DNA of 64,000 bases from an uncultured Gammaproteobacteria bacterium (GTDB lineage Bacteria; Patescibacteriota; Patescibacteriia; Magasanikbacterales; UBA922), in NCBI GenBank assembly GCA_964566225.1, contig CAZMHV010000001.1, positions 242,651 through 306,650 of the forward strand, written 5' to 3'. A program made the position numbers and the translations under genes. Of the stretch, positions 52,841-61,045 are shown in pieces. Under the pieces are notes generated by a model that was not told the origin of the DNA, did not search any database, and was given only the letters and a program-made list of their open reading frames with translations. Every line of letters starts with the position of its first letter. The stretch's first letter is position 1.

Positions 52841-53572
52841 CTAGTGACCAGATTTTTTGTCTTTGGGAGCAAAAATCGTTTTACTAAACTGGTGAATTAT
52901 ATCAGAAAAAAGCGAAGATGTCAATATAAAGAGGGACTTTACCATAGGAAGCATCCAGAGCGCCAAGAACGAAAAAACTGGAAAAACCAAGAGATATGCC
53001 AGATTGGCTTGACTAATTTTTTTGTCTTTTTGGTGACGATATTCCAAGTAAATTTCAAAAAAGAGCACCAGTCCGACCACCAATGGCCAAAACAAAGTAT
53101 GTGTCTCACCAAGCTCAAATCCGTAAAAATTGGTGTTGATAGTCCCTGGAATTTCTACTGATGGATAGAGGTATTCAAGCAGATTACGTCCACTGATACC
53201 ACGAATAAATACTTGGTAGAGAAGAATCAATACCAGAAGTTGTACCCCAATAACAATGATTCTCGCAAATGGGCGTACTTTTCTTTTTTTCAAAATTTTA
53301 CGCACATGCATTTTTTGCTGAACCGGATCTTGTTTGAATTCTTTCATCACTTTTTCTACTTCATGTTCAAGTTCTACATTTTGCGCTTGAGTCTTTTCGG
53401 TAAGTAAAGTAAATGGAAGTAATGCCAAACGGAGCAAAATAGTCAGATACACCACAGCCCAACCCAAATTTTGGTCAGTCCAGTTGTTGTAAATCCAAAT
53501 CAAAAGGTTAAAAACTGGTTTATACAAATATTCGTTCCACAAATCAAACATAAAAAAGAGACAAAAGTACAA
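52841..53572 (-). CDS. yidC: Membrane protein insertase YidC/Oxa1 family (short form)
   Basis: 'NLGWAVVYLTILLRLALLPFTLLTEKTQ' is the conserved first-TM region of YidC; a polytopic membrane protein. Confidence 0.75.
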   Translation of the reverse strand: MYFCLFFMFDLWNEYLYKPVFNLLIWIYNNWTDQNLGWAVVYLTILLRLALLPFTLLTEKTQAQNVELEHEVEKVMKEFKQDPVQQKMHVRKILKKRKVRPFARIIVIGVQLLVLILLYQVFIRGISGRNLLEYLYPSVEIPGTINTNFYGFELGETHTLFWPLVVGLVLFFEIYLEYRHQKDKKISQANLAYLLVFPVFSFLALWMLPMVKSLFILTSSLFSDIIHQFSKTIFAPKDKKSGH

Positions 53573-53612
53573 TGAATAGTATACCAGAAAAAGAGATAAA
53601 AAGCAATGAAAC

Positions 53613-53641
53613 TTGACAAAAATTCAAAAATAATGTATTAT
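53613..53641 (+). promoter_or_regulatory. sigma70-like promoter TTGACA-N17-TATTAT upstream of the tRNA pair
   Basis: Consensus -35, exact 17-nt spacer, -10 TATTAT; the tRNA begins 17 nt downstream. Confidence 0.55.
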
Positions 53642-53658
53642 TTCGAGTCAAATAATTT

Positions 53659-53733
53659 GGGGTCATAGCTCAATGGTAGAGCGAAGCGACCTTGGAAGTC
53701 GCACGGTTCGGGGTTCGAGTCCCCGTGATTCCA
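53659..53733 (+). tRNA. tRNA, probably tRNA-Pro (anticodon TGG), with non-canonical linker lengths
   Basis: Canonical D-arm GCTC-AATGGTA-GAGC, T-arm CGGGG-TTCGAGT-CCCCG, 7-bp acceptor (two G-U). The anticodon stem GCGAC/GTCGC with loop CTTGGAA is preceded by 3 nt (GAA) and followed by a 6-nt variable loop. Confidence 0.55.
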
Positions 53734-53744
53734 TGATTTTGACT

Positions 53745-53758
53745 GGCACTTCGGTGCC
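53745..53758 (+). other. C(UUCG)G tetraloop hairpin in the inter-tRNA spacer
   Basis: GGCAC-TTCG-GTGCC, followed by TCTTT. Confidence 0.4.
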
Positions 53759-53763
53759 TCTTT

Positions 53764-53835
53764 GGGGTTGTAGCTCAGCGGTAGAGCAGTGGGTTTAGGT
53801 CCCATGGGTCAGGGGTTCAAATCCCCTCTTCTCTA
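53764..53835 (+). tRNA. tRNA-like element with a tRNA-Leu(UAG)-type anticodon loop but class-I architecture and a non-pairing acceptor stem (possible pseudo-tRNA)
   Basis: D-arm GCTC-AGCGGTA-GAGC, anticodon stem GTGGG/CCCAT with loop TTTAGGT (identical to the E. coli tRNA-Leu-UAG loop), 5-nt variable loop, perfect T-arm AGGGG-TTCAAAT-CCCCT. The following 7 nt CTTCTCT do not pair with the 5' GGGGTTG; a CAACCC complement lies 10 nt further on. Confidence 0.35.
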
Positions 53836-53841
53836 TCCAAC

Positions 53842-53880
53842 CCGGGGTGTAGGCTTGTCCATGTGACACCTACACCCCGG
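53842..53880 (+). other. Perfect 12-bp hairpin (CCGGGGTGTAGG / CCTACACCCCGG, 15-nt loop) downstream of the tRNA-like element
   Basis: Seen in sequence; no T-run follows immediately. Confidence 0.4.
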
Positions 53881-53898
53881 GAACCAATTCACCAAAAC

Positions 53899-53932
53899 AA
53901 AAAGACATCCAGTATTTAGGATGTCTTTTTTA
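53899..53932. terminator. Bidirectional rho-independent terminator (tRNA operon / Mur ligase gene)
   Basis: AGACATCC-loop-GGATGTCT followed by TTTTTT; overlaps the stop codon of the minus-strand gene. Confidence 0.6.
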
Positions 53933-55262
53933 ATACTTCTCGAACAATTTTTCTGTCGTCCCAAGGAATAATTTTTCCTTTCACCACCATGCCCTGTTCA
54001 CTGCCCTTGCCTGTAATAAGTACCAAATCTTGTGGTCCTGCCATTTCAAGGGCCTTTTCAATGGCCTCTTTGCGATCCAAAATTTTAAATATATTTGTGC
54101 CTTCTTGTTTGCCTGTTTTCAGTACAGCAGAAGCCACATCATCAATAATGGTTTGAGGATTATCGTCGTATGGGTCTTCGTCGGTAATAATACACATGTC
54201 AGCATGATTCCCCACAAACTCACCCACGGTAAAACGACGCTGCACATCTCGGCCACCACCAGTAGAACCAAATACATGAATCACACGTTTGGGTACCAAA
54301 AGTTTTACTACTTCGTACAATTTTTGAATTGCCACAGGCTCAAATGCATAATCCACAATAACCTGAAATCCTTTTGCTTCGGCTTCTTTGATAAATTCCA
54401 AACGTCCTTCTGGTCCCTGCAAATTATTCACAGCTTGTTTTAACAGTGCCTCGGAAATTTGTAACCGATGCGCCACAGTGAGTGCTGCCAAAATATTTGA
54501 CACATTGTGTTCACCATAGAGTGGTGCATGAAAACTGTTTCCATTCCATACAAAGTGCAAACCATTTTTATCTGTGACAATATTTGCATTTGAACTTTGA
54601 AATTGTAATTTTTCATCAAAAGAATACTGCAAAAATTCATTGGCATATTCATTGTCGCCGTTGACCACAGCAATTTTTGGAATAGTATTTGAAAAAATCT
54701 TTTGCACTTTTGGTGTGAGCGCACGTGGTCCAGTCCATCGTCTTTGTGTGCCATGCACATTTTTGCGTCGAAGATTTGCAATGTGTTTGAAAAAAGAAAG
54801 TTTGGCGCCTTTGTAATTTTTGAAACTGCCATGTGACTCGATGTGTTCTGGATACAAATTGGTGAGCATGGCAATGTCGTAATTGATAAACCGGTGACGA
54901 TGCTGCACTACACCTTCGGATGTGGTTTCCACAATGGCAATGTCACATTGTTTGTTTACCATTTCACGCAAATACTTTTGAATTTGCATTTTGCCAAGCA
55001 TGGTCATTTTTTGGTCGTTGAGTTTCATTTCACCATTGATGTAAAAATCAATGGTAGAAAGTGAGCCGACTTTGAAACCAGCAGACTCCAAAATTTGTCG
55101 TAGAAAAAAAGTGGTGCTTGATTTGCCACTGGTTCCCGTAATACCAATCACCAGCAAACAATCTGCAGGGTGATGGTATTCGAGCGCGCCATACCAAGCA
55201 TAGTACAAATGCTTGAGGTTACGAATAGGTTTGGGGAGGAGTTTTTTGATGAGGGTTTTCAT
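53916..55262 (-). CDS. Mur ligase family protein, probably UDP-N-acetylmuramoyl-tripeptide synthetase (MurE-like, lacking the N-terminal domain)
   Basis: 'VIGITGTSGKSSTTF', 'NLYPEHIESHG', 'GRLEFI', 'DYAFEP' match MurE/Mur-ligase motifs. Confidence 0.6.
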   Translation of the reverse strand: MKTLIKKLLPKPIRNLKHLYYAWYGALEYHHPADCLLVIGITGTSGKSSTTFFLRQILESAGFKVGSLSTIDFYINGEMKLNDQKMTMLGKMQIQKYLREMVNKQCDIAIVETTSEGVVQHRHRFINYDIAMLTNLYPEHIESHGSFKNYKGAKLSFFKHIANLRRKNVHGTQRRWTGPRALTPKVQKIFSNTIPKIAVVNGDNEYANEFLQYSFDEKLQFQSSNANIVTDKNGLHFVWNGNSFHAPLYGEHNVSNILAALTVAHRLQISEALLKQAVNNLQGPEGRLEFIKEAEAKGFQVIVDYAFEPVAIQKLYEVVKLLVPKRVIHVFGSTGGGRDVQRRFTVGEFVGNHADMCIITDEDPYDDNPQTIIDDVASAVLKTGKQEGTNIFKILDRKEAIEKALEMAGPQDLVLITGKGSEQGMVVKGKIIPWDDRKIVREVLKKTS

Positions 55263-55441
55263 AGGATTGATTTATTTTAGCGGAATTAAAGAGAAAATAC
55301 AACCCATTTAAAAAAATTTGACAAAAAAATAAAGTTCGTATAAAGTTGAATTATATGAATAAACAAATCTCATCAATCCAAACTACCACCACAACCTGCC
55401 CTCTTGGCTAAGGCTGTGGTTTGATATCTCTATCTTCCAAA

Positions 55442-55468
55442 CTGCCCTAGCCGGGGCAGTTTTTGTTT
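55442..55468 (+). terminator. Terminator-like hairpin followed by a T-run, upstream of the GC-rich small ORF
   Basis: CTGCCC-loop-GGGCAG then TTTTTGTTT. Confidence 0.35.
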
Positions 55469-55539
55469 ATCGCGATATGCATCGATGCGGAATGGTCCGT
55501 GTCGATGCAGGGTCGCGAGAAACAGAAGAAGGAGGAAAT

Positions 55540-55887
55540 GTGAGACCTGATCTCTACCATCCGTGGTCGCCAGACGTGGGGCAGATGCTTCACGTCGGAA
55601 GCTGGCAGGTGGGATGTGTGCCACCGAGGGAGATGAAAGTGGAGGTCACGGTGCCTCCCGTGCAAAAGAAAGGACGGACGGCGTTCGCAGAGTGGCTCAA
55701 GGGGGTGAGCCAGTCGGAAAGCCGGATGCGAGTGCCAGGCGAGATCATCACCATGGGCGAGAACGTCTGCTCATGCTACATTTGCACGTGTGGATGCTAT
55801 AACCAATCGCGAGGAGGGATGCAGTACTTCATCGAAAAGCGTGAAGGCGTGTTCGTTCACGACTTCTGCGGAGAATCGGTGGAGTGA
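55540..55887 (+). CDS. GC-rich small cysteine-cluster protein (about 115 aa), hypothetical
   Basis: GTG start 4 nt after a perfect AAGGAGG; about 58% GC against an AT-rich background; motif 'CSCYICTCGCY' plus 'DFCGE'; followed by a strong GC hairpin terminator. Confidence 0.35.
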   Translation: MRPDLYHPWSPDVGQMLHVGSWQVGCVPPREMKVEVTVPPVQKKGRTAFAEWLKGVSQSESRMRVPGEIITMGENVCSCYICTCGCYNQSRGGMQYFIEKREGVFVHDFCGESVE

Positions 55888-55935
55888 AAAAAAAGGCGGC
55901 CGAGGATGTTCCCGGCCGCCGCTTCGATTTTGTTT
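55887..55935. terminator. Bidirectional rho-independent terminator with an 8-bp all-GC stem
   Basis: A8-GGCGGCCG-loop-CGGCCGCC-GCTTCGATTTTGTTTT between convergent genes. Confidence 0.7.
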
Positions 55936-56282
55936 TAGAGGGCATTTACAAATCCCTGAAGAAAAGCAATATCTTCACCTGTACCAATTTTATTTTTTTT
56001 GAGAATTTCAATTACCTTTTGTTTGTAATCTTTATCTTTTTGAGATTCTTTTTCAAGGCGTTTAAAAATGTCTGTGGTATAATCTGATAGTTTTCGATCA
56101 ATATATGTCTTCAGATTATGTTCTAACTTCACGTTTTCTGATTTCATCTCTGTTCGTAAACCATCGATTTTTCCATCCATCATATCTGACATGGCCGGAA
56201 TCAAAAAATCATTAGCAAACTCTACCAATAAATCTTTCATTTCTTCTTTTGTTGCAGGAGAATTATTTTTCATATACATCAA
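55935..56282 (-). CDS. hypothetical helical protein (115 aa), co-transcribed downstream of the translin homologue
   Basis: AT-rich native-type composition; no recognisable motif. Confidence 0.45.
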   Translation of the reverse strand: MMYMKNNSPATKEEMKDLLVEFANDFLIPAMSDMMDGKIDGLRTEMKSENVKLEHNLKTYIDRKLSDYTTDIFKRLEKESQKDKDYKQKVIEILKKNKIGTGEDIAFLQGFVNAL

Positions 56283-56316
56283 TTATAATCATCCTTTTCT
56301 TTTTCTGTCAAGTCTG

Positions 56317-56901
56317 CTACTTTCCACCACGCAGTGTCGTCTCATACACCACCACCTCAAGTTTATGCGCCGCCTGTTTGGCCTGGTCAAATTTGTTGCG
56401 TAAATATTTGGTGAGATTAAATTCCATGAGTTCACCAATAATTTCTTCGGCAGCAAGGGAACATTTTTTTACTGTGTTCATGTCGTGATTGGTTGCGGCA
56501 CGAATGGCGTAGCGAAAGAGTTCGCCTGGAACATCACAGAGACCTGCCAAATAAATTTCACCTGGCACATCAAGTCCTTTGACTTCTCCCATTTCTCCGG
56601 TTTTCAAAAATTGGTAAAATAAACTGGCTTCCACATATTCTTCGAGTGCTGCGGCAAAAACACCTTCGTCTTGAATTTCTGGATTCTTTTTATTGCGTTT
56701 GACCAAATCTTTCATGATGGATTCCACGAGTTTCAACTTTTGTTCGGCCTCTTTGACTTCACCTCGGTGAAGATCAAAAATAACTCGCTTGGCATGGTGC
56801 AAAGCATCGTCAGAACTTTTAATAACGTCCCGGCGGATGAGGGCGTATTCATGAAGATTTTTCTTGAGTTTTTCTACGTAATTCTTTTTGAGCATAGGCA
56901 A
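56317..56901 (-). CDS. Translin-family protein
   Basis: 'EEYVEASLFYQFL', 'YLAGLCDVPGELFRYAIRAATNHD' and 'LRNKFDQAKQAAHKLEVVVYETTLRG' align with the human translin C-terminal region ('YLVGVLQLASELSRLSVNSVTAGD', 'LRKRYDGLKYDVKKVEEVVYDLSIRG'). Confidence 0.6.
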   Translation of the reverse strand: MPMLKKNYVEKLKKNLHEYALIRRDVIKSSDDALHHAKRVIFDLHRGEVKEAEQKLKLVESIMKDLVKRNKKNPEIQDEGVFAAALEEYVEASLFYQFLKTGEMGEVKGLDVPGEIYLAGLCDVPGELFRYAIRAATNHDMNTVKKCSLAAEEIIGELMEFNLTKYLRNKFDQAKQAAHKLEVVVYETTLRGGK

Positions 56902-56958
56902 AAATAAGGGTCAATAAGTGCCTGTATTATATACTCCCCACCCCTTTTGGTCAAAAAC

Positions 56959-56987
56959 TTGACTTTTTTTTGAAAAAGTTTTATTAT
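56959..56987 (+). promoter_or_regulatory. sigma70-like promoter TTGACT-N17-TATTAT upstream of tRNA-Lys
   Basis: Exact 17-nt spacer; the tRNA begins 21 nt downstream. Confidence 0.5.
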
Positions 56988-57008
56988 AAAGCGGTTCAAA
57001 AAAACCAT

Positions 57009-57081
57009 GGGATGGTAGCTCAGTCGGTAGAGCAGTAGCCTTTTAAGCTAATGGTCCTGGGTTCGATCCCCAGCCGTCCCA
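57009..57081 (+). tRNA. tRNA-Lys (anticodon TTT)
   Basis: Acceptor GGGATGG/CCGTCCC, D-arm GCTC-AGTCGGTA-GAGC, anticodon loop CTTTTAA, T-arm CTGGG-TTCGATC-CCCAG, discriminator A; no encoded CCA. Confidence 0.8.
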
Positions 57082-57084
57082 CAC

Positions 57085-57120
57085 AAAAAAATACCTCGAG
57101 AAATTCGAGGTATTTTTTAT
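57085..57120 (+). terminator. Rho-independent terminator after tRNA-Lys
   Basis: ATACCTCGA-GAAAT-TCGAGGTAT followed by TTTTTT. Confidence 0.7.
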
Positions 57121-57239
57121 TATATTTTTCAATCCCGCACTCCTAGAATATGTCGAACAGTCAACAGATTCTGCTGCTGCGGGATCGACGAAATTTCACC
57201 TTCTCCCCCGCAACAACACCGGCATTGCACCGGGGGGGG

Positions 57240-58145
57240 TCAGTAGTCGATCTGGTTCGCCGGGAGCGGATCGATGAGCCTGATCTGGCGGAGGCGACGG
57301 AACTTGTAGGCGCCGGCCGTCACCAGAGGCTGAGTGACCTCCGGGTGGATGAAGATCGGCATGGAGAACCGATCCCGGCAGGCCGCGCGCGGGTTGACCA
57401 CGCGGTGCGTCACCGAGGGGATCTCGCCGAACGTGTGCATCTGCAGCATGTCACCAGGGTTGACGATGATCGACCCCATGGGGTTGTTGGCGTCCAGCCA
57501 CACGCCGTCGCGCGTCTTCACCTGCAGGCCCGGCTCGTCCGACGGCACCAACAGAGTGACCAGGTTGATGTCCTCGTGATCACCCGAACGGGGCACTTCG
57601 GGGTCCGAGCCGTCCAGCGCCGGGTAGTGGATGACGCGGAGCAGGTTCTCGCCCTTGGCGATCCAGTTGAGGAAGAAGTTCGGATCGCGACCGAGGTGCA
57701 TGGCGAGCGCCTTCAGGATCGTTCCACCAGCACAGGCCTTGAGCGCCGCGTGAAGTTCCAGAGCCGTGGGCCCGAAGTCCGGCACCTCGACCGGGAACTC
57801 GTTCCGAACGATCGACGCCGGATCGTTGACGTGCCAGAAGGCCATGCGGTTGGCCCGGGTCTGCCCCACCGAGACTTCGGTGTCCGCGGGCGTGAAGCCC
57901 ATCTGGTGACCCTCGGCCACGAACTCGTACCGCAGCCGCTGCTCCAGGGTCATGCGGGTGAGGAAGACCTCACGCGCGAGCTCGAAAGCCCGGGCGAGAA
58001 GATTCTCCTGCACGCCGTGTCCGACGATGGAGACGAAGCCGTGCTCACGGAAGATACGCCCGAGCGCGTCCGCGATTTCCATGTCTCCCGCTTCGTCTTC
58101 TCCGAAGCGGTGCATGTCAAGAATGGGAATACCACTCAATTTCAT
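57240..58145 (-). CDS. 2OG-Fe(II) oxygenase, isopenicillin-N-synthase-like family (GC-rich, foreign composition)
   Basis: N-terminal DIOX_N-like 'IPILDMHRF', HxD 'HEDINLVTLL', distal His in 'THRVVNP'; about 62% GC. Confidence 0.7.
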   Translation of the reverse strand: MKLSGIPILDMHRFGEDEAGDMEIADALGRIFREHGFVSIVGHGVQENLLARAFELAREVFLTRMTLEQRLRYEFVAEGHQMGFTPADTEVSVGQTRANRMAFWHVNDPASIVRNEFPVEVPDFGPTALELHAALKACAGGTILKALAMHLGRDPNFFLNWIAKGENLLRVIHYPALDGSDPEVPRSGDHEDINLVTLLVPSDEPGLQVKTRDGVWLDANNPMGSIIVNPGDMLQMHTFGEIPSVTHRVVNPRAACRDRFSMPIFIHPEVTQPLVTAGAYKFRRLRQIRLIDPLPANQIDY

Positions 58146-58214
58146 TACCCTTTCAATTTGAGTTCAATTATCCCAGGCAACCACGCCCGAGAACCACCCG
58201 CAAGAATACAAAAA

Positions 58215-58240
58215 ATACTTTTGATTGTCAACAAAAGTAT
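58215..58240 (+). promoter_or_regulatory. Perfect 9-bp inverted repeat ATACTTTTG-N8-CAAAAGTAT (operator candidate) overlapping the -35
   Basis: Seen in the divergent intergenic region between the oxygenase and the nucleoside phosphorylase. Confidence 0.4.
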
Positions 58241-58268
58241 TGACAAACAGAAGAATTTTCTTTATTCT
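58240..58268 (+). promoter_or_regulatory. sigma70 promoter TTGACA-N17-TATTCT for the nucleoside phosphorylase gene
   Basis: Consensus -35, 17-nt spacer; AGGGGA RBS before the ATG at 58300. Confidence 0.5.
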
Positions 58269-58299
58269 GCACCTACACCAACAACCAGGGGAAACCCAA

Positions 58300-59109
58300 A
58301 TGAGTGAGAAAGCTGTCTCGGCAGCCCGTCCGATCATCGGTGGACTGACCATGCACCTCAAGACCGCGCCGGGCTCGCTGGCGCCGCACTGCCTCATGGT
58401 GGGCGCGGCGGGGCGTGCACGGACGATCGCGCAGGAGTACCTGACCGGCGCAGTCAAGGTGGGCGGTGACGACAACCGCTACTACGACTGCTACACGGGC
58501 GAGTACAGGGGGTTGCCGATCTCCGTGGTCACCCACGGGATCGGCATGCCTTCGATGCTCATCGCGATCGAAGAGTCCCGCATGTCAGGTGCCCAACGGT
58601 ACCTGCGAATCGGGTCGTGCTCCACGCTCCGGCGAGACATCAACATCGGTGACGTAGCCATCGTGGCCGGCGCGCTCCCGCCGGGCGCGACAGACATCGA
58701 CGGGTTGGTGAATGCTGACCCAAGGATGTACCACGCGCTTCTCGAAGCTGCAGACAAGATCGTCAAGGTGCCCTATGCCTACGGCATCTGCGTGACCACC
58801 AACGACTTCACTGGTGGGCAGGGCAGGCCGGACGCAGAAGGCTTCCTGGACGAGGAGGACAAGCTCGATCACGAAGCGAGGATCAACGGCGGCGAGATCG
58901 ACTTCTACGACATGGAGAACTACGCGCTGTTCAACCGGGCCAGGACTCGTCGCACCGCGAGACGCGCCGGCTTCATGGCCGGCAGCGTGATGGCGGTATA
59001 CGGCAACCGCATCACTGACCAGCTCGTCGAGCACGCCGGTGACAAGGAGACCATCGAGACGGCCCTGCAGGCCATGGTGCTGCTCGCGCACGACCACCCC
59101 CTCCCCTGA
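58300..59109 (+). CDS. PNP/UDP-family (family-1) nucleoside phosphorylase/nucleosidase (GC-rich, foreign composition)
   Basis: 'HCLMVGAAGRARTIAQEYL' resembles the DeoD 'VVLMPGDPLRAKYIAETFL' region; 'ISVVTHGIGMPSMLIAIEE' and 'GSCSTLRRDINIGDVAIV' resemble the family core. Confidence 0.65.
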   Translation: MSEKAVSAARPIIGGLTMHLKTAPGSLAPHCLMVGAAGRARTIAQEYLTGAVKVGGDDNRYYDCYTGEYRGLPISVVTHGIGMPSMLIAIEESRMSGAQRYLRIGSCSTLRRDINIGDVAIVAGALPPGATDIDGLVNADPRMYHALLEAADKIVKVPYAYGICVTTNDFTGGQGRPDAEGFLDEEDKLDHEARINGGEIDFYDMENYALFNRARTRRTARRAGFMAGSVMAVYGNRITDQLVEHAGDKETIETALQAMVLLAHDHPLP

Positions 59110-59217
59110 CCTTGCCTCGGCAAGGGGACACGCGGGTGGCATCAAGGACGACGTCACCCGGACTGTGCATTTCATTTTTGAAAAATACAGTTTGGAGATG
59201 TGATGTCGTCTCAACAT

Positions 59218-59256
59218 AAAAATAATCCCGTTTTCTGCGGGATTATTTTTTTATCT
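59218..59256. terminator. Bidirectional rho-independent terminator
   Basis: AATAATCCCG-loop-CGGGATTATT followed by TTTTTTT. Confidence 0.65.
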
Positions 59257-59264
59257 TTCAAATT

Positions 59265-59678
59265 TTAATTTGCCTTCTTAAACTTCACCTGAAACACTGG
59301 CTCATAATTTTGTTCGTATTCATCAGTTACAGAAACAGTCTCCCCTTTCATTACTTGAGTCATAGCAATGTCACTGAGCATTTCGTTGTCACTTTCAATG
59401 TCAATTTTCAAATCTTCAATTTGTTGAAATTCGTTGTGAAAATCTTGGCGAATGGTATTTTCAATTGATTTTTTCTTTTCACGAAGGGTCTTGAGTTTTT
59501 CCATGGCCTCAACATATTCTTGCACGGTTTTGAGCGCATCACTGTATGATGTTTTTAAATCTTTCATTTTCTTTTTATTTTTTTGAATGCGCACGAAAAT
59601 TTCTTGGATGTTTTGCATAGAGTCATGAAGAAGTAAAAATGATTGCTCTATTATAGATGAAAAAATGATTCTGGTCAA
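59265..59678 (-). CDS. hypothetical coiled-coil protein (AT-rich, native composition)
   Basis: Lys/Glu-rich helical ORF between two GC-rich genes. Confidence 0.45.
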   Translation of the reverse strand: MTRIIFSSIIEQSFLLLHDSMQNIQEIFVRIQKNKKKMKDLKTSYSDALKTVQEYVEAMEKLKTLREKKKSIENTIRQDFHNEFQQIEDLKIDIESDNEMLSDIAMTQVMKGETVSVTDEYEQNYEPVFQVKFKKAN

Positions 59679-59813
59679 AGAACAAAAAAACTGACTCTAT
59701 ATGAATCAGTTTTTTTGTAATTTGTGAAAACAAAATTTTCTTTGCACAAATCTCCCCCGGCCGCCTTGCACGAAATTGTGAACAGGGCGGGCCGGTGAAT
59801 ACGTTGTTGTGGG

Positions 59814-60896
59814 TTACTGAACTGCCGAGACAGCCTGAGCATCAGCAGGTGCACAGATACTCGTCATCACCTCGTGAGTCCTGGCCATCTCCGGAAATGA
59901 CGGAAACTGAAACCCTGAGAGTGTCTGAACATGCGAGGACTTGTCGAGCTTGAGCAGCTTGGTGATATCCTCCATCTGCTCGGCACAGAAAATATCGTCG
60001 AGCACAGCCTGACGAACCGGTGTTTCCTCATACGCCGCTTGATAGGCCATAGCTTCGGCCACCACAAACTGCATATACTGCTCGCGGATGTCTCCAATGC
60101 AGAGTGAGATCTGATTGGGATTTTTCACCCCGTTCAGATGAAAATCTGCGAGCAAATTGAGCGCCACAACGGAACGAATCACGAACTGTCCATTGGCATC
60201 CCTCGGCAACGCCTCCCGCAGATTCCAGTGCAACTGTGCACACTGGGCTTCGCGGTGACGTGTACGAAAGCACTCCAACTTCTTGGCCGCCGCTCGACTG
60301 GTCTTGGCTGCACTCGTCAGCACACCTTCGCACTGAGCTCGAGTGCTCTCGGTCAGACTGACCTTCTCCGTGATCAGTTTGGACGAAGGTGCAAAGCCCC
60401 GCCACTCCCAGTCTTCACTGTAAACCTTACATGGGAGATTCCTACAGACGGTGAGCAGATCAGCGTCCGAGACCACCGCCTGAACCGAGGACGAGACCGC
60501 CACGGTTGGTAGCGCAGGTGGAAGAGGTGGAGTTGGCGCTGTCGTATCAGGTTCCAGAGACGGAGGCGAAACCGGCGATGATAGCATCACCGGAAGGGAC
60601 TTCGCCGGGACAGGAAGAACCAGCGTCGGCTCCGAAGAGATTGCGCCCAGCAACCACGCGATGTCATCCAAATCCCCTGCAGCATGGAAGTCTTCGACCA
60701 CCACCTCCTTTTCGTCTTGCGAACTGCCCCCCGAGGCTCCCAGGAAGTATCCACCTCCAAACGACACAGCCCAGAGAAACAGAACGCTGCGGACGACGTT
60801 CCGAAGAGCCTTTCCACTCAACTCGATTTTGTTGCTCACGACAGACTCCCCTCGCGCCTCGCGCGAATTGAAAAAGTGAAGCATCAGTCGACCCAT
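59814..60896 (-). CDS. hypothetical membrane-anchored protein with Pro-rich linker (GC-rich, foreign composition)
   Basis: About 55% GC; N-terminal TM 'VVRSVLFLWAVSFGGGYFLGA', linker 'PTPPLPPALP', Cys-containing C-terminal domain. Confidence 0.45.
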   Translation of the reverse strand: MGRLMLHFFNSREARGESVVSNKIELSGKALRNVVRSVLFLWAVSFGGGYFLGASGGSSQDEKEVVVEDFHAAGDLDDIAWLLGAISSEPTLVLPVPAKSLPVMLSSPVSPPSLEPDTTAPTPPLPPALPTVAVSSSVQAVVSDADLLTVCRNLPCKVYSEDWEWRGFAPSSKLITEKVSLTESTRAQCEGVLTSAAKTSRAAAKKLECFRTRHREAQCAQLHWNLREALPRDANGQFVIRSVVALNLLADFHLNGVKNPNQISLCIGDIREQYMQFVVAEAMAYQAAYEETPVRQAVLDDIFCAEQMEDITKLLKLDKSSHVQTLSGFQFPSFPEMARTHEVMTSICAPADAQAVSAVQ

Positions 60897-61045
60897 TCGA
60901 CCGAAAATACAACAGAAAAAATTTTCTCCTGTACATTCGGCCGAATCTATAACAACGTATTTTTTCTCCTCATAAAAAGAACAACTTAGAAAATTCTAAG
61001 TTGCTGAGTATAGCAAAAAAAACTTATAAAGTCAAGAAGCAACGC

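What the first reader, a model, noticed from the sequence alone, without database searches (positions are those of the whole stretch)
55540..55887. Highly expressed-looking GC-rich ORF with a CSCYICTCGC cysteine cluster, insulated by terminators
A roughly 115-aa ORF of about 58% GC starts at a GTG 4 nt after a perfect AAGGAGG. It ends at an 8-bp all-GC bidirectional terminator and is preceded by another terminator-like hairpin.

The protein carries five Cys in ten residues (CSCYICTCGC) plus a further Cys. That resembles metal-binding or redox modules, and superficially the Cys/Ser/Thr-rich cores of thiopeptide or ranthipeptide precursors, but no maturation enzymes are nearby.

The shorter in-frame alternatives (MRVPGEII..., MGENVCSCY...) would give a 44-53 aa Cys-rich peptide. 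Either a novel small metalloprotein or a structured GC-rich RNA mis-read as coding.
Basis: partly seen in the sequence, partly recalled or inferred. Interest (0 to 1): 0.6.

Follow-up and report, generated by a model that had tools for sequence, protein, structure and literature searches.

The report
Thr-leader-gated orphan Cys-rich protein gene
The GC-rich ORF is a real gene for a very rare, uncharacterised small cysteine/histidine (probably zinc-binding) protein in a Magasanikbacteria (CPR) genome, and the "terminator" in front of it looks like the off-switch of a threonine-codon leader-peptide attenuator, a control device I found no report of in these bacteria in the paper library searched.

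Summary
A 115-codon ORF (GTG 55540 to TGA 55887, 58% GC, GC3 0.71) starts 4 nt after AAGGAGG in a roughly 40% GC genome. It has hairpins on both sides and a CSCYICTCGC cluster.

It codes for protein. A syntenic orthologue (63% identity) keeps the start, the frame and all cluster cysteines, with dN/dS 0.31 and only in-frame indels. The structured-RNA and short-peptide readings are rejected.

The protein belongs to an orphan family: 5 clusters among 1.84 and 5.8 billion proteins. Its roughly 70-aa C-terminal domain carries an invariant CxCxxCxCxC...HxxC signature. No Pfam, NCBIfam, PHROGs, PADLOC, PDB-sequence or fold match was found.

The upstream hairpin is not an insulator. A perfect TTGACA promoter (55318) drives a tiny ORF, MNKQISSIQTTTTTCPLG. 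A hairpin overlaps its Thr codons and stop, followed by an intrinsic terminator. Predicted antiterminator pairing replaces the terminator when a ribosome is placed on the Thr run.

The same architecture recurs upstream of other GC-rich orphan genes in related genomes, with Thr5, Tyr3 or Ser5 runs. The Mur-ligase/Translin slot carries different GC-rich genes, or none, in relatives.

Protein function and metal binding remain inferred.

The parts
55318..55346 (+). Sigma-70-type promoter: TTGACA, a spacer, then TAAAGT/TATAAA. It is the only plus-strand promoter-like site upstream of the ORF.
   Evidence: A perfect TTGACA with the same spacing is present in all six leaders.
55355..55411 (+). Leader-peptide mini-ORF MNKQISSIQTTTTTCPLG* (ATG to TAA). 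The ATG lies about 10 nt after the -10 box, so initiation is probably leaderless or nearly so.
   Evidence: Read. Counterparts are L002 MMKQIASIQTTTTTYPQG*, L004 MKQNLQQLNQTTTTTAFLSLRVW* and L007 MMNNSVQQLQTTTTTQPEC*.
55382..55396 (+). Five consecutive Thr codons (ACT ACC ACC ACA ACC), the proposed regulatory codons.
   Evidence: The run is kept through synonymous changes in L004 (ACT ACG ACC ACA ACC) and L007 (ACA ACT ACC ACA ACC).
55388..55420 (+). Hairpin H1 (regions 1:2). It overlaps Thr codons 3-5 and the leader stop codon.
   Evidence: dG about -15 kcal/mol. The apical stem differs in L007 but stays paired.
55406..55454 (+). Predicted antiterminator (regions 2:3). GGCUAAGGCUGUGGUUUGA (55406-55424) pairs with CCAAACUGCCCUAGCCGG (55437-55454).
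   Evidence: Constrained folds. Duplex dG is -19.2 kcal/mol, matched by 17 of 2000 shuffles; in L002 it is -23.1 kcal/mol, matched by 1 of 2000.
55439..55469 (+). Intrinsic terminator of the leader (regions 3:4): a 10-bp stem, a 4-nt loop and TTTTTGTTT.
   Evidence: It is conserved in L002.
55470..55518 (+). GC-rich 5'-UTR hairpin H3 with the conserved loop GAAUGG. Its function is unknown.
   Evidence: Six of 20 pairs show compensatory changes across window, L002 and L004.
55529..55535 (+). Shine-Dalgarno sequence AAGGAGG, 4 nt before the GTG.
55540..55887 (+). 115-aa protein-coding gene, a member of an orphan Cys6His family.
55675..55884 (+). Conserved C-terminal domain of about 70 aa (residues 46-115): a helix, RVPGEI, the Cys cluster, a beta-hairpin and HxxC.
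   Evidence: Alignments. AlphaFold2 gives pLDDT 77 and pTM 0.64.
55768..55797 (+). Cys cluster CSCYICTCGC (C77, C79, C82, C84, C86).
   Evidence: Invariant in 5 of 5 full-length family members. Only the CxC part is kept in the duplicated second domain of P0002.
55858..55869 (+). HDFC (H107...C110), a conserved HxxC knuckle.
   Evidence: A partial paralogue in L006 has CEDC at this position.
55888..55920 (.). A-run plus a GC hairpin. It is a canonical terminator for the convergent minus-strand gene and a weaker one for the ORF.
   Evidence: The stem-loop is 26 of 26 identical in L002.

Best explanation
The ORF encodes a small cytoplasmic protein. Its C-terminal domain of about 70 aa is held together by metal, most likely zinc, bound to an invariant Cys6His set (CxCxxCxCxC...HxxC). 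I infer a core site of C77, C79, H107 and C110, and a second site using C82, C84 and C86.

The gene is an accessory gene of foreign composition (GC3 0.71 against about 0.36). It sits in a variable slot between the Mur ligase and Translin genes of a Candidatus Magasanikbacteria-like genome.

Its expression is gated by a ribosome-mediated transcription attenuator, which would work as follows.
1. A consensus promoter makes a nearly leaderless transcript whose first 18 codons contain five consecutive Thr codons.
2. If the ribosome runs through to the leader stop codon, the terminator at 55439-55462 forms and transcription ends.
3. If the ribosome stalls on the Thr run because charged tRNA-Thr is scarce, the 3' arm of hairpin H1 pairs with the 5' arm and loop of the terminator. 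This is the antiterminator.
4. RNA polymerase then reads through H3 into the strongly ribosome-bound ORF.

Shown: coding status, family conservation, the leader architecture and its recurrence, and the predicted alternative pairings.

Inferred: metal binding, the Thr response, and the protein's action. Because the domain is acidic (pI 5.3), I guess it acts by binding a partner protein rather than nucleic acid.
For: Coding status:
- The orthologue in L002 shares the start position, with an SD, and 63% identity. The alignment has a 3-nt and a 219-nt in-frame indel.
- dN/dS is 0.31 and dS is about 1.0. Substitutions by codon position are 33, 26 and 49.
- The same arrangement appears in three independent assemblies.

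Family:
- Only 5 clusters were found in exhaustive HMM searches.
- C77, C79, C82, C84, C86, H107 and C110 are invariant in the five full-length proteins.
- H is replaced by C in a partial L006 paralogue.
- The domain model has pLDDT 77.

Leader:
- The promoter and terminator are detected.
- The leader is about 92-96% identical between window and L002, although the adjacent ORFs have dS of about 1.
- The Thr5 mini-ORF is conserved through synonymous codon changes in four distinct loci.
- Analogous Tyr3 and Ser5 leaders occur in L007. The Ser run mixes TCN and AGC codons.
- With a ribosome placed on the run, the minimum-energy fold loses the terminator in window, L002, L007syn and the Ser5 leader. 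With the ribosome at the stop codon, the terminator forms in all six.
- The 2:3 complementarity beats shuffles in the four Thr5 leaders: 17, 1, 4 and 40 of 2000.
- No other plus-strand promoter lies between the terminator and the ORF.

Slot variability: it is empty in L029 and L030, holds His_Phos_1 in L027 and L028, and holds a Thr5 leader plus a GCS2-like gene in L007.
Against: - There is no experimental evidence for transcription start, termination, leader translation or a Thr response.
- The downstream gene has no visible link to threonine, and CPR bacteria are generally thought to lack amino-acid biosynthesis (my own knowledge). The regulatory logic is therefore unexplained.
- Only six leaders from about four organisms are available.
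- The antiterminator is weak or not predicted as the minimum-energy fold in L004 and the Tyr3 leader. The shuffle test is not significant for the Tyr3 and Ser5 leaders.
- MAFFT plus RNAalifold did not recover a consensus for the leaders.
- Metal binding rests on a residue pattern only.
- The full-length model was poor, with pLDDT 52.
Confidence: 0.6

Rival explanations
1. The upstream unit is an independent small gene (an sRNA or an 18-aa peptide) with its own terminator. The Cys-rich ORF is transcribed separately, so it is truly 'insulated'.
For: The terminator is strong: 10 bp plus a T-run. The leader is far more conserved than the ORF, as a stand-alone RNA gene would be. The gene is unrelated to Thr metabolism.
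Against: No promoter-like site lies between 55463 and 55540; that space is filled by the conserved H3 hairpin. The same leader type sits immediately upstream of a co-oriented gene with a strong SD in all six cases. The antiterminator complementarity covaries and beats shuffles.
Confidence: 0.15
2. The region is a structured GC-rich non-coding RNA mis-read as an ORF.
For: It has high GC, and folding is mildly better than shuffles (z = -2.4).
Against: dN/dS is 0.31 with an excess of third-position changes. The only indels are an in-frame codon indel and an in-frame domain duplication in L002. Protein-level homologues down to 36% identity keep the Cys/His pattern. Rfam gives no hit.
Confidence: 0.02
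3. It is a RiPP precursor (thiopeptide- or ranthipeptide-like), or a short 44-53-aa Cys-rich peptide made from an internal start.
For: The core-like stretch is rich in Cys, Ser and Thr.
Against: No modifying enzymes are present in the window neighbourhood or in any homologue's contig. Conservation covers a roughly 70-aa domain with predicted secondary structure and a distal HxxC. N-terminal residues 2-45 are under purifying selection in the orthologue pair, with omega 0.31.
Confidence: 0.03
4. The Cys cluster binds an iron-sulfur cluster or acts as a redox or disulfide centre rather than a structural zinc site.
For: CxC motifs with seven potential ligands fit Fe-S or redox chemistry as well as they fit zinc. 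No fold match discriminates between them.
Against: The H-to-C exchange in the knuckle, and the survival of a minimal CxC...HxxC set in the duplicated domain of P0002, are typical of a four-ligand zinc site (my own knowledge). No Fe-S assembly or redox partner genes are nearby.
Confidence: 0.2
5. The gene is cargo of an integrative mobile element or phage, for example a small host-takeover or anti-defence protein. The leader belongs to that mobile module rather than to host physiology.
For: Composition is foreign and the slot is variable. In L004 the module sits next to a tRNA 3' end and a truncated serine recombinase. P0003 lies about 1 kb from a tRNA-Thr gene. The leader plus H3 is shared between different loci.
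Against: There are no hits in IMG/VR, PHROGs, BFVD or PADLOC. No integrase or repeats flank the window copy. The gene is retained in two diverged genomes at dS of about 1.
Confidence: 0.25

Closest known systems
Enterobacterial amino-acid operon leaders (thrL, hisL, pheL; Rfam Thr_leader RF00506)
   Same: A short ORF with tandem codons for one amino acid. A 1:2 hairpin overlaps those codons. There are mutually exclusive antiterminator and intrinsic terminator structures, followed by a structural gene.
   Different: There is no sequence or covariance-model match. The leader ORF appears leaderless. The organism is a CPR bacterium. The downstream genes are GC-rich orphan or accessory genes, not Thr biosynthesis genes. 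Sister leaders use Tyr3 and Ser5 runs.
Leaderless polycysteine short ORFs of mycobacteria (Canestrari et al., bioRxiv 10.1101/834739)
   Same: Leaderless mini-ORFs with a homopolymeric codon tract act as ribosome-stalling sensors controlling downstream genes. Several loci share one design.
   Different: In mycobacteria, stalling unmasks a sequestered ribosome-binding site, and the controlled genes are Cys-metabolic. Here an intrinsic terminator is the switch, the tracts are Thr, Ser or Tyr, and the cargo has no evident link to the sensed amino acid.
Small zinc-knuckle or zinc-ribbon type domains
   Same: Short knuckles (CxC, HxxC) flank a beta-hairpin. His and Cys are interchangeable in one ligand position. 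The domain is about 70 aa.
   Different: The CxCxxCxCxC spacing with seven conserved ligands matches no Pfam or NCBIfam model. The model matches no solved fold.

Membership tests
Leader-peptide transcription attenuator (thrL type) | A short ORF with tandem codons for the sensed amino acid | tested here: met
   An 18-codon ORF carries five consecutive Thr codons at 55382-55396. The run is conserved in L002, L004 and L007 through synonymous changes.
Leader-peptide transcription attenuator (thrL type) | An intrinsic terminator between the leader ORF and the structural gene | tested here: met
   A 10-bp stem plus a T-run lies at 55439-55469. The same element is present in all six leaders.
Leader-peptide transcription attenuator (thrL type) | An alternative antiterminator pairing that forms when the ribosome stalls on the regulatory codons | tested here: met
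   This is prediction only. Constrained folds replace the terminator in 4 of 6 leaders. The 2:3 duplex beats shuffles in the four Thr5 leaders.
Leader-peptide transcription attenuator (thrL type) | Downstream genes that make or charge the cognate amino acid | tested here: not met
   The downstream genes are an orphan Cys-rich protein, a weakly GCS2-like ligase and other orphans.
Leader-peptide transcription attenuator (thrL type) | A match to the Rfam Thr_leader model | tested here: not met
   cmscan at E up to 1 over 53000-61000 gave no hit in 55300-55540.
Leader-peptide transcription attenuator (thrL type) | Read-through induced by limitation of the amino acid | not testable with these tools
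   This needs reporter assays or Term-seq.
Leaderless homopolymer-sORF attenuators (mycobacterial Cys 'ribulon') | The sORF starts at or near the transcript 5' end | tested here: inconclusive
   The ATG lies 9-15 nt after the -10 box in all six leaders and has no SD. The transcription start is not measured.
Leaderless homopolymer-sORF attenuators (mycobacterial Cys 'ribulon') | Stalling relieves sequestration of the ribosome-binding site | tested here: inconclusive
   An anti-SD pairing is predicted in the window. By my reading of the L004 sequence it is not conserved there. A terminator is the conserved element.
Zinc-knuckle / zinc-ribbon domains | Conserved ligand pairs in short knuckles | tested here: met
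   CxC and HxxC are invariant in all family domains aligned. The knuckle His is replaced by Cys in a partial L006 paralogue.
Zinc-knuckle / zinc-ribbon domains | Structural similarity to a known zinc fold | tested here: not met
Zinc-knuckle / zinc-ribbon domains | Bound zinc | not testable with these tools
   This needs metal analysis of purified protein.
RiPP precursor (thiopeptide / ranthipeptide) | Adjacent maturation enzymes and a leader-core architecture | tested here: not met
   No such genes occur in the window or in the homologues' contigs. Conservation spans a folded 70-aa domain.
Metallothionein | Very high Cys content (my own knowledge: roughly 20-30%) with few aromatic residues | tested here: not met
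   It has 7 Cys in 114 residues, about 6%, and conserved Y, F and W positions.

The most novel reading that the evidence does not exclude
Magasanikbacteria (CPR) may use a family of leaderless homopolymer-codon leader peptides (Thr5, Ser5, Tyr3) as amino-acid or ribosome-stalling sensors. These sensors would gate GC-rich, apparently horizontally acquired orphan genes that sit in insertion hot spots. For an episymbiont that depends on imported amino acids, a shortfall in supply would switch on foreign accessory genes. One of these encodes a new Cys6His metal-binding fold.
Probability: 0.4. Interest if true: 0.75.

Novelty: new variant of a known kind. Interest (0 to 1): 0.6.

Why it matters
Ribosome-mediated attenuation is textbook biology for amino-acid biosynthetic operons of proteobacteria. 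A leaderless variant is known in mycobacteria. Two full-text searches of the paper library found no paper combining leader-peptide attenuation with Patescibacteria or the candidate phyla radiation. In the cases found here it also controls genes unrelated to the sensed amino acid.

If confirmed, it would give a direct handle on how ultra-small symbiotic bacteria sense nutrient supply. It would also define a testable regulon of orphan accessory genes.

The protein adds a rare, structurally unmatched Cys6His domain.

A further puzzle is that GC3 stays near 0.7 in two orthologues that have diverged to dS of about 1 inside roughly 40% GC genomes. This persistence of foreign composition is unexplained.

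Tried and rejected
Homology and family searches that found nothing:
- Pfam, PHROGs, NCBIfam and PADLOC scans of the protein and of other cargo proteins gave nothing usable.
- PDB sequence searches gave only chance-level hits.
- Family scans of GTDB representative genomes, IMG/VR and JGI metagenomes found no relatives.

Structure:
- The AlphaFold2 model of the full-length protein with 3 sequences was poor, at pLDDT 52.
- Only the domain alignment gave a usable model, and it matched no fold.
- The afdb50 library was not available.

Searches for more leaders:
- A DNA pattern for the Thr5 leader in JGI metagenomes and IMG/VR returned only the L007 organism again plus chance hits.
- An nhmmer profile of the leaders found no further copies in the window or in loci L008-L030.
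- MAFFT plus RNAalifold on six leaders failed because the alignment is not structure-aware. I used per-sequence constrained folding and duplex shuffles instead.

Ideas tested and dropped:
- Homology between the window protein's N-terminus or domain and L004 ORF1 was not significant.
- An anti-SD pairing (55426-55436 with the SD) predicted in the window does not appear conserved in L004 by my reading of its sequence. I dropped it as a mechanism.
- The other GC-rich islands in the window have no Thr-type leader.

Full report
**Observation**

The sequence shows AAGGAGG at 55529-55535, four bases, then GTG at 55540. The open frame runs to TGA at 55885-55887 and is 115 aa.
- The ORF is 57.8% GC with GC3 0.71. 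Neighbouring genes (Mur ligase, YidC, Translin, DnaB) have GC3 of 0.25-0.42, and the window averages about 40% GC.
- The pattern scan finds a terminator-like hairpin with a T-run at 55439-55462 on the plus strand.
- It also finds a 10-pair GC hairpin at 55895-55920. This one is canonical for the minus strand; on the plus strand the T-run begins 6 nt after the stem.
- The protein has CSCYICTCGC at residues 77-86 plus C26 and C110.

**It is a protein-coding gene**

The word-indexed search of 5.8 billion clusters returned a 99% identical copy and a 63% identical 186-aa protein.
- The 99% copy is P0001 in L001, from an independent SRA assembly.
- A third assembly also carries the arrangement.
- The 63% homologue is P0002 in L002.

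L002 is syntenic with the window. It has the same Mur-ligase 5' end, the same upstream leader and the same 3' hairpin.

Evidence for coding from the window/L002 pair:
- P0002 starts with ATG behind GGAGGA exactly where the window has its GTG.
- The alignment contains one 3-nt indel and one 219-nt in-frame duplication of the C-terminal domain.
- Nei-Gojobori gives dN 0.31, dS 1.0 and dN/dS 0.31, similar in the N- and C-terminal halves.
- Substitutions at codon positions 1, 2 and 3 number 33, 26 and 49.
- The ORF RNA folds only mildly better than shuffles (z = -2.4).
- Rfam has no match.

The ncRNA reading and the short internal starts are therefore rejected. The longer ATG starts picked by gene callers (131 or 136 aa) lie inside a conserved RNA hairpin, H3, and have no SD.

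**An orphan Cys6His family**

An exhaustive HMM search of 1.84 billion representatives found only five clusters. A profile search of the 5.8-billion set found the same five. Nothing was found in GTDB representative genomes, IMG/VR or JGI metagenomes.

The shared part is a C-terminal domain of about 70 aa. Its pattern is F..W(L/F)...(R/K)VPG..(I/V)...CxCxxCxCGCY...(K/R)R..G.(F/W)(V/I)HxxC(G/K).

Points bearing on the metal site:
- In the duplicated second domain of P0002, only the CxC...HxxC part survives.
- In a partial tandem paralogue upstream of P0005, the knuckle reads CEDC instead of HxxC.
- I read this as a core four-ligand metal site (C77, C79, H107, C110) plus a second site using C82, C84 and C86. 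This is inference.
- The domain is acidic, with pI 5.3.

Structure and family searches:
- The full-length AlphaFold2 model was poor (pLDDT 52). The domain alignment gave pLDDT 77 and pTM 0.64, with a helix, a short strand and a terminal beta-hairpin.
- Pfam, NCBIfam, PHROGs, PADLOC and PDB-sequence searches gave no significant match.

One member, P0003, sits in a contig of about 57% GC, where its composition is native. This fits transfer from a GC-richer lineage.

**The upstream 'terminator' is part of a leader-peptide attenuator**

Between window and L002, the stretch from the TTGACA promoter (55318) to the terminator is about 92-96% identical, while the adjacent ORFs have dS of about 1.

Reading that stretch gives the following elements, in order.
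1. A promoter.
2. About 10 nt later, an ATG at 55355 opening MNKQISSIQTTTTTCPLG*, with five consecutive Thr codons at 55382-55396.
3. Hairpin H1 (55388-55420), covering Thr codons 3-5 and the stop codon.
4. A spacer.
5. The terminator.

The same design occurs elsewhere:
- L002: MMKQIASIQTTTTTYPQG*.
- L004: MKQNLQQLNQTTTTTAFLSLRVW*.
- L007, on the Mur-ligase side: MMNNSVQQLQTTTTTQPEC*.
- The Thr run is kept through synonymous changes in these loci.

A homologous leader elsewhere in L007 has YYY instead (MKMAKIAQVNAYYYAVPS*). A sequence-independent scan for a mini-ORF with a homopolymer run followed by a terminator picked up a third type in L007. This one is MIFMVRQCVSSSSSGIEAG*, whose Ser codons are TCA TCA AGC TCT TCT and so come from two codon boxes. 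Mixed codons argue that the run is read as amino acids, not as an RNA motif.

All six leaders have a perfect TTGACA, a spacer of about 17 nt and an ATG 9-15 nt after the -10 box with no SD. This suggests leaderless initiation, which is inference.

Folding tests:
- The leader-to-start-codon RNA folds far better than shuffles (z = -7.3).
- With a ribosome footprint placed on the run, the minimum-energy structure replaces the terminator by pairing the H1 3' arm with the terminator's 5' arm and loop. This happens in window, L002, L007-syntenic and the Ser5 leader.
- With the ribosome at the leader stop codon, the terminator forms in all six.
- The 2:3 duplex runs from -16 to -23 kcal/mol in the Thr5 leaders. 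It is matched by only 17, 1, 4 and 40 of 2000 shuffles.
- The paired sequences differ between loci: GGCUAAGG with CC(C/U)UAGCC, UAAGGG with CCCUUA, and GCUGAGG with CCUCAAGC.
- For the Tyr3 and Ser5 leaders the shuffle test was not significant, partly because of poor automatic region choice.

No other plus-strand promoter-like site lies between the terminator and the ORF.

This is the anatomy of a thrL-type attenuator. The closest described relative of the leaderless aspect is the mycobacterial polycysteine sORF system, which acts on the ribosome-binding site rather than on a terminator. Two full-text searches of the paper library for leader-peptide attenuation in Patescibacteria or the candidate phyla radiation returned nothing.

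**H3**

Between the terminator and the SD lies a GC-rich hairpin at 55470-55518.
- It is conserved in window, L002 and L004.
- Six of its 20 pairs change on both sides across those three sequences.
- Its loop, GAAU(G/A)GG, is conserved.
- Its role is unknown. It marks the start of the GC-rich segment.

**Genomic context**

Mur-ligase relatives place the window in Candidatus Magasanikbacteria (CPR), with a best GTDB hit of 61%. The slot between Mur ligase and Translin varies among relatives:

| Locus (Mur-ligase identity) | Content of the slot |
|---|---|
| L029 (76%), L030 (74%) | Empty; in L029 Translin is followed by Mur ligase after 30 nt |
| L027 (86%), L028 (82%) | GC-rich His_Phos_1 gene behind a plain promoter |
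| L007 (61%) | Thr5 leader plus a GC-rich, weakly GCS2/YbdK-like gene |
| Window, L001, L002 | Thr5 leader plus the Cys-rich gene |

- All leader-driven genes are GC-rich relative to their genomes, with GC3 of 0.57-0.79, and most are orphans.
- In L004 the leader and H3 precede a three-gene GC-rich operon that ends with the family member P0004. The operon lies next to a tRNA 3' end and a truncated serine recombinase.
- The gene thus looks like accessory, probably horizontally acquired, cargo in a hot spot.
- Both orthologues keep GC3 near 0.7 after dS of about 1. This is unexplained.

**Verdict**

The ncRNA, RiPP and short-peptide options are rejected. 'Insulated and highly expressed' should be replaced by 'gated by a Thr-codon leader-peptide attenuator'.

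My confidence by claim is:
- About 0.95 that this is a real member of a conserved protein family.
- About 0.7 for the attenuator.
- About 0.55-0.6 for zinc binding.
- Low for any specific cellular role.

I rate novelty as a new variant of a known kind. That covers a leader-peptide attenuator in a new lineage with unusual cargo, and an orphan Cys6His domain.

Noticed in passing
window 57240-58145 (-), 58300-59109 (+), 59814-60896 (-): Three further sharply bounded GC-rich single-gene islands lie beside tRNA-Lys (57009-57082) in a roughly 40% GC genome. They are a 2OG-Fe(II) oxygenase (GC3 0.85), a PNP_UDP_1 phosphorylase (GC3 0.84) and a 360-aa orphan (GC3 0.62). The relative L029 lacks the first two.
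   Followed up: partly
L007 13798-13966 (+) and 15448-15612 (+): Two more leader-peptide attenuator-like units sit in a Magasanikbacteria MAG. One has a Tyr3 run (MKMAKIAQVNAYYYAVPS*) and one a Ser5 run (MIFMVRQCVSSSSSGIEAG*, mixed TCN/AGC codons). Each precedes a GC-rich orphan gene with a strong SD. Thr, Ser and Tyr are the three hydroxyl amino acids, which may be chance.
   Followed up: partly
window 55470-55518; L002 ~311-357; L004 ~590-637: The GC-rich 5'-UTR hairpin H3 has a conserved GAAUGG-type loop and 6 of 20 compensatory pairs. It is shared by loci that carry the Cys-rich family gene. Its function is unknown.
   Followed up: partly
window 60897-61045 (minus strand); L029 3384-3545: A second kind of conserved leader lies upstream of the GC-rich 360-aa ORF and of the L029 228-aa ORF. 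It has a TTGAC(T/A) promoter, a terminator-like hairpin whose stem sequence differs between the two loci, a T-run, an SD followed by a 2-4-codon mini-ORF, and a conserved TCGGTCGAATGG box with a related TTCGGCCGAATG upstream.
   Followed up: no
window 55895-55920 vs L002 ~949-974: The 3' hairpin, loop included, is 26 of 26 identical between the two genomes, although the flanking coding sequences have dS of about 1. This suggests constraint beyond simple termination.
   Followed up: no
L002 715-933; L006 1-81: The family shows internal and tandem duplication. P0002 carries a second domain that has lost three of the cluster Cys. L006 has a partial upstream paralogue with CEDC in place of HxxC.
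   Followed up: partly
L004 112-142 and 378-408: A truncated serine-recombinase ORF (Resolvase N-terminal domain) is flanked by direct repeats GGGAAAAGAGTCTGGGATGATTTTTAT. It lies next to a tRNA 3' end, immediately upstream of the Thr5 leader.
   Followed up: no
window 56317-56901 (-) and L007 6090-6701, L029 5392-5970: A Translin-family gene is conserved next to the Mur ligase in these Magasanikbacteria.
   Followed up: no
L004 1521-1554; L005 287-330; L006 377-420: Downstream of the family gene, L004 and L005/L006 share the sequence GGGGAACACCAGAAAAAATC. In L005/L006 it continues to form a GGGGA...TCCCC hairpin. This suggests a common module end that differs from the window's 3' hairpin.
   Followed up: no
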